This document shows, in pieces, positions 3,997 through 10,301 of a stretch of 64,000 nt of DNA. The notes under the pieces were generated by a model that saw only the letters and a list, made by a program, of their open reading frames with translations, made no database searches and had not been told where the DNA came from. The DNA comes from Verrucomicrobiota bacterium (GTDB taxonomy: Bacteria; Verrucomicrobiota; Verrucomicrobiia; Limisphaerales; AAA164-E04). Location of the stretch: the NCBI GenBank assembly GCA_047947115.1, contig CP170459.1, positions 3,328,001 through 3,392,000 of the forward strand. The letters run 5' to 3'. The translations under genes were made by a program, and so were the position numbers. The number at the start of each line of letters is the position of its first letter. Position 1 is the stretch's first letter.

Positions 3997-6900
3997 TTAC
4001 TGAGCAATAAAGAATCGGTTGCCGTCTCCGATCTCGATGCTTGAGCTGGGCGGTGTAGCGCCTGCTACGGGAGTGAACGGCCCGGTGACCGTTGAGGATT
4101 CCAGTAACTGGTTGCCTGTCCATTCGATGACCAGATTGCCTTCCTGAACGGAGAAGCTGCTGATCTCGGCCGCTGCGACAAATGGGACGGATCCACCTTT
4201 GATCACGGCATTGTCGAAGTTACCAATAGTCTGGTTGCCCTGGATTTCACCTGTTTCCGGATCAGCGCCACCCACATTGTCAGCATAGGCACCGATGCCA
4301 AACTGCAATCCGCTGGAGAACGGGAAGTCAATTTCGACTCCGAACACGTCATCCAGGAACAATTTGGCGGTGGCACCGTTCAGGGTGATTTTCATCCGAT
4401 GATCGCCTCCATTATCAAAAGGAGGTCCATCGAAGGCGGGAATGTTGACACCGATGCCGGTCGCATCGTCGTCCGGAGCGCCCGTTACCTTGTTGTAGTG
4501 CCAGCCGTAGTTGCGTCCATCATGGGTGGTGTAATCGTTGAACAGGATGAAGTTTCCATTTCCATCGCGAACCCACAGACCGGTTCTTGATTCCGAACCG
4601 GTTCCTTCTTCAAGCACGAAGTCGACATTGGATCGGTCGATTTCGAAGGTCAGCGGTTCCGCAGAACTTGCGGAATAACTGTCGACCGTGAAGATGGCAA
4701 TACCCGGCCACAGTGCTTGTTCCACTTCCACATGAATAACCACTTCACCGTTTTCGAAACGAATTTCGGATTCGGGAGCAGGTTTCAGGATGCCGCTTGG
4801 GTCGAAGGGGGTTTCGTCCACTGTCCATTTGCTGCCGTCCAACGATGCCCCGGAGAAATCATCGGTGAGGAACGTTTCCGGCACCGACACAATCTCCACG
4901 CTGACGGAACCATCCACACAGGCGCCAGCGTCATTCGTGGCGGTGAACGATGCAGAACCGAGCCCGACGGCGGAAACACCCACTGTTTGCTTGTTGGATG
5001 AACCAGCAGGGAAGGTCAAGGTGAGCGATCCGTTTGAAGCCCCTGCAGGAACCGCGACGGCAGGATTGTTACTGGTCAGGGTGACTGATACATCCGCCGA
5101 ATCGTTCAGCAGGCGAGGCACCGTGACAGTGATTTCGCCTCGCTCGGCCAGTGTGAGCAACACATTTGACGGAGACAGGTCGATGCACGGAATCACGTTT
5201 TCGATTTTGACGTTGTCAAAAAGTCCGATCACATCATCGTCCGCATTCTGTGCATAAGCGCCCAGTTCAACGTGAATGCCGGCGCTGACTTCGAAGGCAA
5301 ATTCACCGCCGGAAACACCATCCACAAAGACTTCGACGGTGCTGCCGTTTGCCACGAGTTTCAACTGGTGTTCCCCAAAGTCCTCGAAAGGAGCAAATGC
5401 GGCGATAATCGTGCCTCCTCCGGTAGGTGAACCGGGATTGGTGTTCACTCGCCACGCGGCATTGTTGGCGTCATCCAGTTCCTGTGACAGGAAAACGAAT
5501 CGGGAGCGATCGTCGTTGGTGAGGAATACACCGGTTCGACCGGCGGTTCCGAATTGATCAATGGAAACTCGATCCACTTCAACAACGAGGTTCAGATCTT
5601 CCGTTGCGAGATAGGAATCCACTGTCTTCAGCGAAGCACCCGCCCAGTTGGCCGTATCGACGATGCCTTCGATCTGTATTTGACCACCCGAGGCTTCCAC
5701 GGTGAAACTGCCGCTGCCATTACCGAAGGGTTCTTCGGAGATCTGCCAATTTGAGCCATCAATGGAACCGGCGAAATCGTCTTCCAAGACCACACCTGGG
5801 TCGGAAATGACCGCGACACTCAGGCGATTGCCGCCTGCGATGTCACCCTGGAGACTGAACTCAGTTCCACCAAGACTCACGCCTGAAATGCGGAACGTTT
5901 GTGAGTTGTCGCCTCCGGCAGGGAAGGTCAAGGTGAGTTTGCCGCCTGTTCCGCCTTCCGGTGTGGCGATGCCTGGATCGGCGCTCACGACTGTCACGGA
6001 CACGGCTCTTTGGGAGTTTAATCCTTGAGGAATGCGGACAGAAACAGGCTGGCTGGTTCCGCCTTCACGAACCCCGATGCCTCCGGGTGAGAACGTTGCT
6101 CCCCCTTCGCTCTCGATGACCAGGTTGTCCCAAACAACATTGGCATTGTCGTTGTTGGCACGTGCATAAGCACCGAAGTGGAAAACAACTGGTGAAAAAG
6201 GGAAGGGAACTTCAGCTCCTTCGACTCCATCCAGAAGCAGTTTCACTGTTTGGCCGTTGGCCACCATGCTCATGTTGTGCAGTCCCGTGTCGCCATCCAA
6301 TGAATCGAAGGCTGCAATGTTCGCTCCACCGCCGGTCGGGGTATCGCCTTCCTGCCCGATTTTTCGGTTGAATTGCCATCCGTTTTCCCCCGCATTTTGG
6401 GCAAAGAGAACATAATTGGATTGAGATTCATCAAGGATCCATAAGGCACTACGCGTGGCAGTGCCGACATCTTCTACCGATACGCGGTCGATGGAAATGG
6501 TGATTTTTTCCGAATCGGAAGGAGCAAATGTCGGAACGATCTGCAAGGTGCCACCTGACCACCATTGTTGGGTCGTTGTGCCAACGAATCGCATCACTCC
6601 ATCGCCAGGTTCTCCACGAATATCACCTACACCGCCTTCGAAGAACGGGGAACCGGCGACGTATTTAGCGGGATTGATGTCATTTGATTCGAAGTCATCG
6701 GAGAAAACAATGTTGCTTTGTTGGGGCACTCCGACGATTTCCAAATTGTCCCAGGTAACGTTTGCCTGATCATTATTAGCCCGAGCATATGCTCCGAAAT
6801 GGAAGACCACGGGAGAAAACGGGAATGGAACTTCGGCTCCTTCTTCGCCGTCGAGGAGGAGTTTTACGGTGGAACCGTTTGCTACAATGCTCATGCGATG

Positions 6901-8094
6901 CAGTCCAAGGTCCCCGTCCAACGAATCAAATGCCGCGATGTTGGAGCCTCCACCGGTAGGGTTGTCCCCGGCCTGGCCTATTTTTCGATTGAACTGCCAG
7001 CCGTTTTCACCTGCATTTTGAGCAAATAGCACATAATTGGTTTCTGATTCGTCAAGAATCCATAGTGCGCTGCGAGCAGCTGTTCCCACATCGGTGACCT
7101 CCACCCGGTCAATGGAAGCAGTCACAGGAGCATCCTGGGTGGGGGCGAATGTTTCTTTGATGCGAAGCGTGCCGCCTGACCACCATTGTTGAGTGGTGGT
7201 GCCTGTGAAGCGCATGACCCCGTTTCCAGCTTCCGCATGGATGTCGCCTACACCACCTTCGAAGAAGGGTGCTGCAGGTTCAAATTTAGCTGCATCAATC
7301 GAATCTGATTCAAAGTCGTCCTCAAAAAGAGTGGTGGTTCTGACCACGGTTTCAATGGTTAGATTATCCCAGGTCACATTCGCGGCGTCATTGTTCGCTC
7401 GTGCGTAGGCGCCGAAATGGAAGACCACGGGAGAAAACGGGAATGGAACTTCGGCCCCTTCTTCGCCGTCGAGGAGGAGTTTCACGGTGGAACCGTTTGC
7501 CACAATGCTCATGCGATGGAGTCCGAGATCACCGTCCAGCGAGTCAAACGCAACGATATTGGAGCCCCCACCGGTGGGATTGTCCCCGGCTTGGCCTATT
7601 TTTCGATTGTATTGCCAGCCGTTTTCTCCGGCATTTTGAGCAAAGAGCACGTAGTTGGTTTCCGATTCATCAAGAATCCAGAGCGCGCTTCGCTCGGCAG
7701 TTCCGACGTCTGCTATTTCAACTCGGTCGATACTTGCTGTTACCGGAGTGTCAGGTGTGGCATCGAACGTTTCCTTGATTCGGAGTGTTCCACCTGACCA
7801 CCACTGCTGGGTGGTGGTGCCGACAAATCGCATGACACCATCTCCCGCTTCCGCGTGAATGTCTCCTACACCACCCTCAAAAAAGGGGGAAGCCTCCTCG
7901 AATTTGGAGCTGTCAATGGTGTTCGATTCGAAGTCGTCCTGGAAGACAACCGTGGATACTTGTGCGTTTGCTTTCTGGATTTGACCGACAAATCCAACCC
8001 ATAGTGCACACACAAGTGCGAAACTGAGCTTGCCGTGATGCCGCCAGAAGGCGTTTTCACGCAGCTCATTCATGTGGTTTGCTTTTATGTCCAT
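3997..8094 (-). CDS. Large secreted acidic protein: five copies of a ~206-aa beta-rich (possibly ConA/LamG-like) domain, two Ig/Calx-beta-like linkers and a short C-terminal domain
   Basis: Signal peptide (KLSFALVCALWVGFVGQIQKANA-Q). Repeats start xxDDF and end W/FDNxxI. Two linkers share LTLTFPAG. Start ATG 8094 or 8073 rather than 8178. Confidence 0.9.
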   Translation of the reverse strand: MDIKANHMNELRENAFWRHHGKLSFALVCALWVGFVGQIQKANAQVSTVVFQDDFESNTIDSSKFEEASPFFEGGVGDIHAEAGDGVMRFVGTTTQQWWSGGTLRIKETFDATPDTPVTASIDRVEIADVGTAERSALWILDESETNYVLFAQNAGENGWQYNRKIGQAGDNPTGGGSNIVAFDSLDGDLGLHRMSIVANGSTVKLLLDGEEGAEVPFPFSPVVFHFGAYARANNDAANVTWDNLTIETVVRTTTLFEDDFESDSIDAAKFEPAAPFFEGGVGDIHAEAGNGVMRFTGTTTQQWWSGGTLRIKETFAPTQDAPVTASIDRVEVTDVGTAARSALWILDESETNYVLFAQNAGENGWQFNRKIGQAGDNPTGGGSNIAAFDSLDGDLGLHRMSIVANGSTVKLLLDGEEGAEVPFPFSPVVFHFGAYARANNDQANVTWDNLEIVGVPQQSNIVFSDDFESNDINPAKYVAGSPFFEGGVGDIRGEPGDGVMRFVGTTTQQWWSGGTLQIVPTFAPSDSEKITISIDRVSVEDVGTATRSALWILDESQSNYVLFAQNAGENGWQFNRKIGQEGDTPTGGGANIAAFDSLDGDTGLHNMSMVANGQTVKLLLDGVEGAEVPFPFSPVVFHFGAYARANNDNANVVWDNLVIESEGGATFSPGGIGVREGGTSQPVSVRIPQGLNSQRAVSVTVVSADPGIATPEGGTGGKLTLTFPAGGDNSQTFRISGVSLGGTEFSLQGDIAGGNRLSVAVISDPGVVLEDDFAGSIDGSNWQISEEPFGNGSGSFTVEASGGQIQIEGIVDTANWAGASLKTVDSYLATEDLNLVVEVDRVSIDQFGTAGRTGVFLTNDDRSRFVFLSQELDDANNAAWRVNTNPGSPTGGGTIIAAFAPFEDFGEHQLKLVANGSTVEVFVDGVSGGEFAFEVSAGIHVELGAYAQNADDDVIGLFDNVKIENVIPCIDLSPSNVLLTLAERGEITVTVPRLLNDSADVSVTLTSNNPAVAVPAGASNGSLTLTFPAGSSNKQTVGVSAVGLGSASFTATNDAGACVDGSVSVEIVSVPETFLTDDFSGASLDGSKWTVDETPFDPSGILKPAPESEIRFENGEVVIHVEVEQALWPGIAIFTVDSYSASSAEPLTFEIDRSNVDFVLEEGTGSESRTGLWVRDGNGNFILFNDYTTHDGRNYGWHYNKVTGAPDDDATGIGVNIPAFDGPPFDNGGDHRMKITLNGATAKLFLDDVFGVEIDFPFSSGLQFGIGAYADNVGGADPETGEIQGNQTIGNFDNAVIKGGSVPFVAAAEISSFSVQEGNLVIEWTGNQLLESSTVTGPFTPVAGATPPSSSIEIGDGNRFFIAQ
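6110..7950 (-). repeat. Three near-identical intragenic tandem repeats (periods 618 and 621 nt)
   Basis: The first Phe codon of FxDDFES lies at 7944, 7326 and 6705. PFFEGGVGDI, GTTTQQWWSGGTL and VPFPFSPVVFHFGAYARANND occur in all three copies. Confidence 0.95.
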
Positions 8095-8519
8095 GTGTTT
8101 GTTTAGATTAAGGTTGTGCGCCGGTTGGTACACAACCACCTTTTTGGGGCACAATTCACCCCGGTTAATGGTTAGCACATTGCTGTTTATGTTCTGGAAT
8201 CGGACAGATTTACTCAGAAAAGGCTGAGCTTGTCAAATTTTCCTTACACAACAAATCAAGCTCAATCGAGCGCCTTCAGAGCATTCCGTGGCAGAGGTTC
8301 CCTCTGCCGGGGGATTGGGCTATCGCTTTCCAAAAGCGCTTCCAAATCATCGCCGCGTTGAGTGGTTTTTGTGTGTTTTCCGGCCGCCTTACTGGATGAG
8401 TTAAACAGCAACATCCCAGATTGATAGAGTTTCATGGATAATGTTTGCATTATATCAAAGACTCCACAGGTTTTTTTCGAAATGCCATTCCAACAATTCT
8501 TCCGATGCATCAGTTGATG

Positions 8520-8547
8520 TTGACTTTCAAATCACTTTTCATACTGT
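8520..8547 (+). promoter_or_regulatory. Putative sigma70 promoter of lexA
   Basis: TTGACT (8520-8525), 16 nt spacer, TACTGT (8542-8547). Overlaps the SOS box, as expected for autorepression. Confidence 0.5.
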
Positions 8548-8576
8548 TCAAAAAAACAGTATGAAAAGTGATTTGA
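8527..8576. repeat. Perfect 22-bp inverted repeat with 6-nt spacer spanning the lexA start codon
   Basis: TCAAATCACTTTTCATACTGTT (8527-8548), CAAAAA, AACAGTATGAAAAGTGATTTGA (8555-8576). Confidence 0.97.
8544..8559. promoter_or_regulatory. LexA operator (SOS box)
   Basis: CTGTTCAAAAAAACAG immediately upstream of the lexA ATG. One mismatch to the Verrucomicrobia motif TGTTC-N4-GAACA and an exact match to CTGT-N8-ACAG. Confidence 0.8.
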
Positions 8577-9202
8577 CGCAGCGCCAGCAGGAGGTGCTGA
8601 GCTTTATTATCAGACATCAACAAACGAATGGCGCGCCACCCAGCCAAAGGGAGGTGGCGCTCGAATTCGGCTTTCGCAGTACCACGGCGGTGGCGGACCA
8701 TTTGAGAGCCCTGCGACGCAAGGGTTACCTGGATCATCGACCACATCAGGCGCGATCACTCAGAGTGTTGTCCCGGACTGATTCGACAGAGCTCTCCCCG
8801 ACTCGTCCTATGATTGTCGATATTCCCGTTTTTGGATGTATTCCGGCCGGGTTTGCGGATGAGAGACGGCAGGATGCTTCCGAGGGTTGCATTTCGGTAG
8901 ATGTGGAAACACTTGGGGTCAAATCAACCGCACGGACCTTTGCGCTGGAAGTCAGGGGGGATTCCATGATCGGTCGTCACATCATGGAAGGGGATTACGC
9001 TGTTTTGGAACATGGGGTGGATCCGCGACCGGGAGATGTGGTCGCAGCATTGATCGACAATGAGTCGACCCTCAAGACATTCGTGAAACAAGGCGGAAAA
9101 CCCTGTCTCAAGGCAGAAAACCCGAAGTATCCGAACTTGATTCCGGCACAGGAACTGGTCATTCAGGGTGTGATGGTGGCGCTCATAAGGAAGTATCGAT
9201 GA
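8561..9202 (+). CDS. lexA: SOS transcriptional repressor LexA
   Basis: LTQRQQEVL...PPSQREVA...HLRALRRKGYL winged HTH; IPAG cleavage site; GDSM catalytic Ser; TLK catalytic Lys. Start at ATG 8561 (MKSDL). Confidence 0.97.
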   Translation: MKSDLTQRQQEVLSFIIRHQQTNGAPPSQREVALEFGFRSTTAVADHLRALRRKGYLDHRPHQARSLRVLSRTDSTELSPTRPMIVDIPVFGCIPAGFADERRQDASEGCISVDVETLGVKSTARTFALEVRGDSMIGRHIMEGDYAVLEHGVDPRPGDVVAALIDNESTLKTFVKQGGKPCLKAENPKYPNLIPAQELVIQGVMVALIRKYR

Positions 9203-9268: not shown

Positions 9269-9343
9269 CGGCTACTGTTTGAAACAATAACTTTTGGATT
9301 CTTGATGGAAGCTATTGGCGAAACGGTTCTGTAATTGATCACT

Positions 9344-9937
9344 ATGACGAACAAATCAACATCGGGCTTGGCGTCGGCTGCCTTGTTTTTCAAGGAAATA
9401 TTCGCCAATCAGCGAACCGTTGGCGCCGCCGCGCCCAGCGCTCCGGCTTTGGGTAAGCATATGGCTTCCAAAGTGCCAGCCTTGGCAGATGGGCAATATG
9501 TCGTGGAATTGGGCGCCGGCACGGGGGCCATCACCGCACAGTTGTTGAACAGCGGCATCCAGGGTGATCAGCTTGTTTCCGTCGAACGATCCGAAGTCAT
9601 GTCCGGGCATTTGCGTAAACGATTTCCCGATATCAAGGTGGTACAGGGGGACGCGTCCCGGCTCAAGTGTCTGCTGGAGGATGATCATGGCATCTGCAGC
9701 AAATCCGTTTCCTGCATCGTATCGGGCCTTCCGCTTCGGTCACTACCCAAAACAGTCGTTAAGTCCATCTTGTCCGAAGCGCAGGAGATCCTTCCCTCCG
9801 GTGGACGATTTATTCAATTCACCTACGATATCCGTAAAGGGGCCAATCCTGCCTTGTCGGCATTCAGTCGTCGGGATACTCAGGTGGTCTGGATGAATTT
9901 TCCTCCTGCCCGCGTGGATGTTTACATCAAGCCGTAA
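9344..9937 (+). CDS. Class I SAM-dependent methyltransferase, phospholipid N-methyltransferase (PmtA/OlsG-like)
   Basis: TVGAAAPS N-terminal motif, VVELGAGTGAIT SAM motif, IVSGLPL, FIQFTY, VWMNFPPARV. Confidence 0.85.
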   Translation: MTNKSTSGLASAALFFKEIFANQRTVGAAAPSAPALGKHMASKVPALADGQYVVELGAGTGAITAQLLNSGIQGDQLVSVERSEVMSGHLRKRFPDIKVVQGDASRLKCLLEDDHGICSKSVSCIVSGLPLRSLPKTVVKSILSEAQEILPSGGRFIQFTYDIRKGANPALSAFSRRDTQVVWMNFPPARVDVYIKP

Positions 9938-9995
9938 TGTTCAGGCCTGGACTCATTCGGATCGATCATTTCGAACTTTAGCAATTATCCTAATT

Positions 9996-10301
9996 ATGAT
10001 GGAATCACTCACCGGGGCACAAAAGCGTCAACTGAAATCCATTGCCCAACGACTGGAGGCGACTGTCCGGGTCGGAAAAAATGGTTTGAGCGATGGATTC
10101 TTCAAAGAGTTGAACGATGCGCTGGAACGTTCCGAACTGGTGAAAGTGCGCTTTTCCGATTTCAAGGATGAAAAGAAGGAGCTGGCACCCCAAATTTCCG
10201 AGAAATCGGGAAGCCATTTTGTCACGCGCGTAGGAAACGTTGCTGTGTATTTTCGGCAACAACCCGATCCTGAGAAGAGACGGGTCAAGTTCAGCTCATA
10301 A
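9996..10301 (+). CDS. yhbY: YhbY/CRM-domain RNA-binding protein
   Basis: LTGAQKRQLKSIAQRL...VGKNGLS...ELVKVRF...VGNVAVYFR. Confidence 0.9.
   Translation: MMESLTGAQKRQLKSIAQRLEATVRVGKNGLSDGFFKELNDALERSELVKVRFSDFKDEKKELAPQISEKSGSHFVTRVGNVAVYFRQQPDPEKRRVKFSS

What the first reader, a model, noticed from the sequence alone, without database searches (positions are those of the whole stretch)
8527..8576. Perfect 22-bp inverted repeat centred on the SOS box and extending into the lexA coding sequence
Seen: TCAAATCACTTTTCATACTGTT-CAAAAA-AACAGTATGAAAAGTGATTTGA. The right arm contains the ATG and codons for MKSDL. The left arm fills the predicted promoter spacer and -10. This is much longer than the 14-16 bp a LexA dimer needs. 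Inference, with alternatives: (a) a supercoiling- or ssDNA-dependent cruciform that removes the operator, adding a second damage input; (b) an mRNA hairpin hiding the start codon in transcripts from an upstream promoter, while the proximal promoter yields a nearly leaderless, translatable mRNA; (c) a neutral template-switch event that perfected a quasi-palindrome.
Basis: partly seen in the sequence, partly recalled or inferred. Interest (0 to 1): 0.7.

Follow-up and report, generated by a model that had tools for sequence, protein, structure and literature searches.

The report
Copy-extended LexA operator at lexA promoter
A real, perfect 22-base mirror repeat sits on the promoter of the DNA-damage repressor gene lexA; its centre matches the clade's ordinary LexA binding site, and the extra length most likely comes from a known replication slip that copied the start of the gene into the promoter spacer, so it is probably not a new switch.

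Summary
The repeat is real: 8527-8548 / 8555-8576, perfect, the longest in the window, and unchanged in 4 of 4 DNA runs. Its inner 9 bp form the order-wide LexA operator, whose left half overlaps the predicted -10 and whose right half ends in the A of the ATG. Of 141 related lexA promoters, 131 keep only this core; 10 are extended (0.9 expected), in three or four lineages. The outer left arm is a reverse copy of lexA codons 1-5. Two strains of a related genus that are 99.7% identical differ by three clustered changes, all of which perfect the repeat. This lineage also gained 21-25-bp perfect repeats inside a coding gene and a gene relic. These point to template switching (quasi-palindrome correction), reading (c). 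Reading (b) has no support: RNA contigs start at 8568-8572 and none covers the left arm. Reading (a) is physically possible, but extrusion would also fold away the promoter. Selection is not excluded: the extension persists, with compensation, across five related LexAs. The scan has reached the same reading on other DNA. Low interest.

The parts
8520..8525 (+). predicted -35 element TTGACT; the extended arm stops 1 nt short of it
   Evidence: sequence; TTGAC upstream of the box in 122 of 141 lexA promoters, with a 16-nt spacer in 66 of the 122. The consensus scanner did not call this promoter.
8527..8548 (+). left arm of the inverted repeat; 8527-8540 is a reverse-complement copy of lexA codons 1-5 filling the promoter spacer
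   Evidence: single copy in the genome
8542..8547 (+). predicted -10 element TACTGT, also the outer part of the left operator half-site
   Evidence: T, A and T at its positions 1, 2 and 6 in 93, 96 and 85% of 141 promoters; inferred, no start site mapped
8542..8561 (.). predicted LexA operator TACTGTTC-AAAA-AAACAGTA (one inner mismatch)
   Evidence: pairing 0.75-0.99 at positions 1-9 across 141 promoters; half-site variants follow recognition-helix variants; the only other near-perfect copy in the genome is at imuB-dnaE2
8549..8554 (+). 6-nt loop CAAAAA; predicted transcription start at about 8552-8554
   Evidence: about 7 nt after the -10 (inference); RNA contigs begin 14-18 nt further on, much as those of the divergent gene stop 12-15 nt short of its predicted start; weak evidence
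8555..8576 (+). right arm: short leader, ATG and codons M-K-S-D-L; likely the template that was copied
   Evidence: homologous to the lexA starts of relatives (MKxDLT)
8561..9202 (+). lexA (213 aa)
   Evidence: TIGR00498 above cut-off; Pfam LexA_DNA_bind and Peptidase_S24
8207..8236 (-). candidate promoter of the divergent 1393-aa gene (-35 TTGACA 8236-8231; weak -10 8212-8207), used only to calibrate RNA contig ends

Best explanation
The centre of the repeat is likely the ordinary LexA self-repression site of a Verrucomicrobiota lexA promoter, and the outer 13-14 bp were likely added by replication template switching that copied the first lexA codons into the promoter spacer. Shown: the repeat; its core is conserved across the order while the extension is rare; the outer left arm mirrors the coding sequence; the same kind of de novo perfect repeat occurs at non-regulatory sites of this genome. 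Inferred: the nascent strand folds back on the 9-bp operator palindrome and copies the right arm over the spacer. The event survives because the spacer sequence is free, while the protein, the -10 and the -35 are untouched (the copy ends 1 nt before the -35). Once long, the repeat decays by point mutation and is re-perfected by further switches, which gives apparent compensation without selection. Regulation would remain the classical one: a LexA dimer covers the -10 and start site until RecA-driven cleavage releases a nearly leaderless mRNA.
For: (1) 131 of 141 lexA promoters with a box keep only the core; pairing drops from 0.75-0.99 (positions 1-9) to 0.13-0.35 beyond, against a null of about 0.24. 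All 6 other genomes of the genus with a lexA hit besides the sister genome are unextended. Among 64 further lexA upstream regions from many phyla, 1 has an arm of 12 bp and none is longer. (2) L010 and L030 are 99.71% identical over 3400 bp; 3 of their 10 differences lie in the left arm and all three make L030 perfect; P about 1.5e-5 for such clustering under a uniform model. (3) Of 11 other long perfect repeats of this genome looked up in relatives, 3 arose since the split from G001: 25 bp inside a coding gene (ortholog 8 of 25 pairs), 21 bp in a frameshifted gene relic (9 of 21) and 22 bp where G001 lacks about 55 bp. Two more are partly paired there (14 of 20, 11 of 18), 3 are retained (21 of 21, 17 of 18, 16 of 17) and 3 had no usable G001 alignment. 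(4) The imuB-dnaE2 promoter has the same layout and 9-bp arms only, in both G000 and G001. (5) G001 keeps 10 of 13 outer pairs, close to the 9 expected from neutral decay. (6) The innermost mismatch is left uncorrected, as a fold-back copy primed on the core would leave it (sequence; inference). (7) The mechanism is in print for bacteria (PMC5941160, PMC7202029) and for dimeric-factor sites in yeast promoters (PMC13100816).
Against: The extension is shared by five related LexAs (L001, L002, L009, L010, L030; one branch, support 86/88, not starred) despite 49-61% divergence at four-fold sites and a 4-nt shift between box and ATG. It shows 2 compensatory changes between G000 and G001 and 1 between L009 and L030. 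Neutral survival of 14 perfect pairs in G000 has P about 0.006, so this reading needs repeated switches at a rate I could not measure. The direction of the L010/L030 change is unknown: the outgroup L009 has the paired state, all three L010 letters are GC-to-AT, and two more differences lie within 60 bp, so a recombined tract or a decay is possible. A shorter extension (12-13 bp) is kept across a distant Spartobacteria-like lineage. In yeast, one of two tested expansions changed expression (PMC13100816), so a mutational origin does not prove neutrality.
Confidence: 0.72

Rival explanations
1. The extension arose by template switching but is kept by selection as a supercoiling-sensitive cruciform. 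Lying between two divergent promoters, it would extrude under negative supercoiling, remove the operator and also fold away the spacer and -10. It would then act as a LexA-independent off-switch or reset, not as an inducer.
For: Persistence and compensation in a five-member clade. A+T-rich perfect stem with a 6-nt loop, -27.2 kcal/mol for the 86-nt stretch. Estimated relaxation 14.7-35 kcal/mol for 22 bp against 6.5-15.5 for the bare core (elastic constant recalled), around a formation cost of about 17-20 kcal/mol (recalled). The divergent gene is found in all 4 RNA runs. Supercoiling-driven extrusion occurs in vivo at attC sites (PMC8946536 passages).
Against: Absent from 131 of 141 relatives and from the paralogous imuB-dnaE2 promoter. 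Decayed in G001 and L010. The other members of the clade have only 17-18 bp and, in the g2 genus, a different gene context. Equally long repeats arise at non-regulatory sites. lexA RNA is present.
Confidence: 0.14
2. The repeat works as an RNA hairpin that hides the start codon in transcripts from an upstream promoter, while the proximal promoter makes a translatable, nearly leaderless mRNA.
For: In every extended lineage the stem covers an ATG. The mismatch opposite the G of the ATG is T in both G001 and L010, which RNA would tolerate as U-G. A stable hairpin could stop reverse transcription and so produce contig ends at 8568-8572; a short upstream leader would be invisible in contigs.
Against: No RNA contig covers 8189-8567 in 4 of 4 runs (contigs only, a weak hint). 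The upstream gene is divergent. No upstream promoter was called (which also missed the proximal one). The box sits on the ATG in most relatives, so any extension must cover it. C-to-T is also the commonest decay, and the T is the state of the unextended relatives.
Confidence: 0.07
3. The flanks are read by protein: an extended LexA site or a second factor that favours symmetric A/T tracts.
For: The five extended family members have imperfect inner box positions, and L001, L002 and L009 share recognition-region residues (SQRE; AVADHL) that differ from the unextended genus members (SLRE; AAADHV).
Against: The outer sequence differs between lineages and simply mirrors each gene's codons. The second operator of the same LexA has no such flanks.
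Confidence: 0.05
4. Assembly or amplification artefact, or a mobile palindromic element.
For: None found.
Against: Identical in 4 of 4 DNA runs; homologous in a sister species; single copy.
Confidence: 0.01

Closest known systems
Template-switch expansion of inverted repeats at dimeric transcription-factor sites (yeast GRE2 9 to 24 bp, and ERT1; PMC13100816, abstract and Discussion read)
   Same: A short factor-binding palindrome grown to over 20 bp by copying one arm onto the other; independent repeated gains at the same kind of locus.
   Different: Here it is bacterial, the template is the gene's own first codons and the overwritten part is the -35/-10 spacer; no expression effect has been measured.
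Quasi-palindrome correction in bacteria (E. coli thyA hotspot, lacZ QP reporters; PMC7202029 passages; PMC5941160 abstract and Introduction)
   Same: Clustered changes that all perfect the repeat; perfect repeats conserved beyond expectation.
   Different: Rate and direction are not measured here; the 2018 survey covered Proteobacteria, not Verrucomicrobiota.
LexA autoregulatory operator: E. coli CTGT-N8-ACAG (PMC8565304 passage); Verrucomicrobia TGTTC-N4-GAACA (Erill et al. 2016; motif recalled, paper not held, seen only as a reference in PMC8565304)
   Same: The core fits CTGT-N8-ACAG exactly and the recalled motif with one mismatch; it overlaps the lexA promoter; a second copy precedes the imuB-dnaE2 mutagenesis gene.
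   Different: A single box whose left half is the predicted -10 and whose right half ends in the start codon; the 13-14-bp extension is not part of either motif.
Cruciform extrusion at integron attC sites (PMC8946536 passages)
   Same: A perfect or near-perfect repeat with a short loop that negative supercoiling could extrude.
   Different: No known partner that needs the folded form; extrusion is not shown here.

Membership tests
LexA operator (SOS box) | Palindrome fitting a LexA motif, overlapping the lexA promoter | tested here: met
   CTGT-N8-ACAG at 8544-8559 (motif from PMC8565304); conserved in 141 of 178 distinct lexA promoters
LexA operator (SOS box) | Same motif upstream of other SOS genes | tested here: met
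   Perfect copy on the start of the imuB-dnaE2 fusion in G000 and G001. No copy was listed near recA.
LexA operator (SOS box) | Sequence follows the repressor's recognition helix | tested here: met
   Half-site classes group with helix classes, seen by inspection and not tested statistically; kin are not independent
LexA operator (SOS box) | LexA binds and represses; damage induces | not testable with these tools
   needs EMSA and induction assays
Template-switch-extended inverted repeat | One arm is a copy of the other while orthologs are shorter or imperfect | tested here: met
Template-switch-extended inverted repeat | Clustered multi-nucleotide changes that all perfect the repeat | tested here: met
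   L010 vs L030, in a related genus, direction not established; all 3 right-arm differences between G000 and G001 coincide with left-arm differences
Template-switch-extended inverted repeat | Event observed, or rate measured, during replication | not testable with these tools
   needs a reversion reporter
Translation-blocking mRNA hairpin | Both arms lie on one transcript | tested here: inconclusive
   No RNA contig covers the left arm in 4 of 4 runs, but contigs cannot show 5' ends; the evidence leans against
Regulatory cruciform | Extrusion at physiological supercoiling, with an effect on expression | not testable with these tools
   rough energy estimate only
Mobile palindromic repeat | Many copies in the genome | tested here: not met
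   single copy at up to 3 mismatches

The most novel reading that the evidence does not exclude
In one clade of Verrucomicrobiota, a copy-extended LexA operator has been recruited as a supercoiling sensor: at 17-22 bp it crosses the threshold for cruciform extrusion, ejects LexA and folds away its own promoter, so that DNA topology gates the SOS master regulator, and template switching keeps the two arms matched as the protein's N-terminus evolves.
Probability: 0.14. Interest if true: 0.65.

Novelty: new member of a known kind. Interest (0 to 1): 0.22.

Why it matters
On the best reading it is a clean bacterial example of a known mutational process: operator palindromes seed their own extension and then appear to co-evolve. 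It warns that compensatory changes in a DNA palindrome are not proof of a functional structure. The locus also offers a ready natural series for testing whether such extensions change regulation: unextended, decayed and perfect alleles, including two strains that are 99.7% identical. If the cruciform reading held, it would add a topological input to SOS control that I did not find in print (searches; a limited library).

Tried and rejected
Artefact: rejected. Mobile repeat: rejected. Upstream transcript: absence of RNA cover at 8189-8567 is only a weak hint, since all runs are contigs. The promoter scanner found no promoter in 8100-8700, so the -35 and -10 calls rest on conservation. An order-wide control at imuB-dnaE2 promoters failed because the gene usually follows lexA in one operon; only G000, G001 and one further locus (L154) had their own box. 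The pattern search found boxes in 33 of 401 genomes, mostly at lexA; I did not score extension at the non-lexA hits. Leading or lagging strand bias from GC skew gave no consistent pattern and is not used. The ortholog alignment for the repeat at genome position 4311410 landed on the imuB-dnaE2 box and was discarded; those for 221151 and 4695321 were incomplete. One search had wrong coordinates and is not used. Rows dropped: of the lexA hits I fetched the listed loci plus 60 further regions, not all; loci with a truncated start or under 75 nt upstream were left out; 37 of 178 promoters lacked a box by my score and were not counted; of the 80 loci, 77 were usable and 64 were new. Monophyly of the genus on the LexA tree is not rejected (p-AU 0.103), so one or two origins within the family cannot be told apart. 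Erill et al. 2016 was not held and its motif string was not found in the library. No paper held lexA, leaderless and cruciform together. No supplements were read.

Full report
Observation. The window holds TCAAATCACTTTTCATACTGTT-CAAAAA-AACAGTATGAAAAGTGATTTGA at 8527-8576, a perfect 22-bp inverted repeat and the longest of 10 in the window. The right arm contains the ATG (8561) of a 213-aa LexA (TIGR00498 above cut-off; both LexA Pfam domains). Block-shuffled genomes give no arm over 14 bp; the real genome has 53 of 15 bp or more. Contigs from 4 of 4 DNA runs of 4 studies cross it unchanged, and it is single-copy. The closest named relatives of this LexA are Verrucomicrobiota, several of them Limisphaerales.

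The core. In 141 of 178 distinct lexA promoters from the order and from metagenomes I found a box-like palindrome. Pairing is 0.75-0.99 over the 9 positions outward from a 4-nt spacer and 0.13-0.35 over positions 10-22, against a null of about 0.24. Half-site variants group with recognition-helix variants (by inspection). The only other near-perfect copy in this genome lies on the start of the imuB-dnaE2 fusion. The core fits the E. coli motif CTGT-N8-ACAG (PMC8565304, passages) and, with one mismatch, the Verrucomicrobia motif that I recall from Erill et al. 2016 (not held). TTGAC precedes the box in 122 of 141, with a 16-nt spacer in 66 of those; the ATG begins on the last A of the box in 74 of 140; an SD-like motif occurs in 2 of 140. 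I infer -35 at 8520-8525, -10 at 8542-8547 and a start in the loop at about 8554, giving a nearly leaderless mRNA. The consensus scanner did not call this promoter.

RNA. lexA contigs begin at 8568, 8568 and 8572 in 3 of 4 RNA runs (8639 in the fourth), and none covers 8189-8567. That is 14-18 nt inside the predicted start, much like the 12-15 nt by which contigs of the divergent gene fall short of its predicted start near 8200. Contigs cannot show 5' ends and a hairpin could stop reverse transcription, so this is a weak hint against an upstream transcript.

The extension. Ten of 141 promoters have 8 or more pairs in positions 10-22 (0.9 expected) and 4 have 10 or more (0.03 expected). They fall into G000 with G001; genus g2 (L009, L030, and L010 with 7 pairs); L112; and a distant lineage with 12-13-bp arms that resembles a Spartobacteria locus. 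The six other genomes of the genus are unextended. Of 64 further lexA regions, one has 12 bp and none has more. The right arm matches the lexA starts of relatives, so the spacer is the copy; it ends 1 nt before the -35. G001 keeps 19 of 22 pairs, with 2 compensatory changes. Its 10 of 13 outer pairs match neutral decay (9 expected), whereas 14 perfect pairs in G000 would have P about 0.006 without repair or selection.

Signs of template switching. L010 and L030 are 99.71% identical over 3400 bp, yet 3 of their 10 differences lie within 9 bp of the left arm and all three perfect the repeat in L030 (P about 1.5e-5). The direction is open, since L009 has the paired state and two more differences lie nearby. 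Of 11 other long perfect repeats of G000 looked up in relatives, three are new since the split from G001: 25 bp inside a protein-coding gene (8 of 25 pairs in the ortholog, with residue changes and a one-codon insertion), 21 bp in a frameshifted gene relic (9 of 21), and 22 bp where G001 lacks about 55 bp. Two are partly paired in G001 (14 of 20, 11 of 18), three are retained (21 of 21, 17 of 18, 16 of 17) and three gave no usable alignment. So repeats of this size arise in this lineage where no regulatory role is apparent. The imuB-dnaE2 promoter, with the same layout, has 9-bp arms in both genomes. In print, template switching perfects and conserves short repeats in bacteria (PMC5941160, abstract and Introduction; PMC7202029, passages) and expands repeats at dimeric-factor sites in yeast, 9 to 24 bp at GRE2 with a four-fold rise in expression and little change at ERT1 (PMC13100816, abstract and Discussion).

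Evidence for selection. The five extended LexAs of the family form one branch (86/88, not starred; monophyly of the genus not rejected, p-AU 0.103). They keep the extension across 49-61% four-fold divergence and a 4-nt shift between box and ATG. A self-repairing repeat predicts this too, so compensation does not discriminate. A 22-bp cruciform would relax about 15-35 kcal/mol against 6.5-15.5 for the core (constants recalled), near a formation cost of roughly 17-20 kcal/mol (recalled), so extrusion is plausible; supercoiling-driven extrusion is known at attC sites (PMC8946536, passages). Searches for lexA with leaderless and cruciform found 0 papers; cruciform extrusion with promoter, repress and LexA found 5, none on this by listing and start of abstract (one read in passages).

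Verdict. Real; an ordinary predicted LexA operator, most likely extended and maintained by template switching (0.72); selected cruciform 0.14; mRNA hairpin 0.07; protein-read flanks 0.05. Earlier notes of this scan give the same reading for other DNA; I had reached it before the look-up. New member of a known kind; interest 0.22.

Noticed in passing
lexA promoters across the order (window 8520-8563; L003-L131, L171-L230): A compact layout is widespread: TTGAC, 16 nt, a -10 that is the left operator half-site, and an ATG whose A ends the right half-site, with no Shine-Dalgarno motif. The operator core shows symmetric variants that follow the LexA helix, more varied than one motif per phylum suggests.
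   Followed up: partly
G000:C1:4305460-4310130 (L132, L141); G001 L231: In G000 and G001 the imuB-dnaE2 fusion is separated from lexA (about 1 Mb in G000) and carries its own leaderless LexA-box promoter, whereas most relatives have a lexA, imuB-dnaE2 operon.
   Followed up: partly
window 9335-10301: lexA is followed by a PmtA-like phospholipid methyltransferase and a YhbY-like gene (both below cut-off); single RNA contigs run from lexA into the first in 2 of 4 runs, which does not show one transcript.
   Followed up: no
G000:C1:1341800-1399000: Two families of dispersed intergenic inverted repeats (15-26-bp arms, about 25 copies) lie between polysaccharide genes and small nucleotidyltransferase-like or toxin-antitoxin-like ORFs; some centres resemble the LexA core.
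   Followed up: no
G000:C1:1704261 and 5325140 (L134, L140): Both BlaI/MecI-type repressor genes have long perfect repeats (18 and 15 bp) made of two mirrored operators at their own promoters.
   Followed up: partly
G000:C1:3243512 (L136) vs L266: A 25-bp perfect repeat inside a coding gene rewrites several residues and adds one codon relative to G001: likely a protein change by template switching.
   Followed up: partly
L112 (G068): An independent 18-bp extension whose right arm holds a short ORF (M-T-I-stop) overlapping the next ATG in front of lexA.
   Followed up: no
G000:C1:1538686 (L137): No operator match was listed upstream of recA at up to 4 mismatches over the 16-letter pattern.
   Followed up: no
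window 3997-8178 (-): Divergent 1393-aa protein with repeated domains and no NCBIfam match; covered by RNA contigs in 4 of 4 runs.
   Followed up: no
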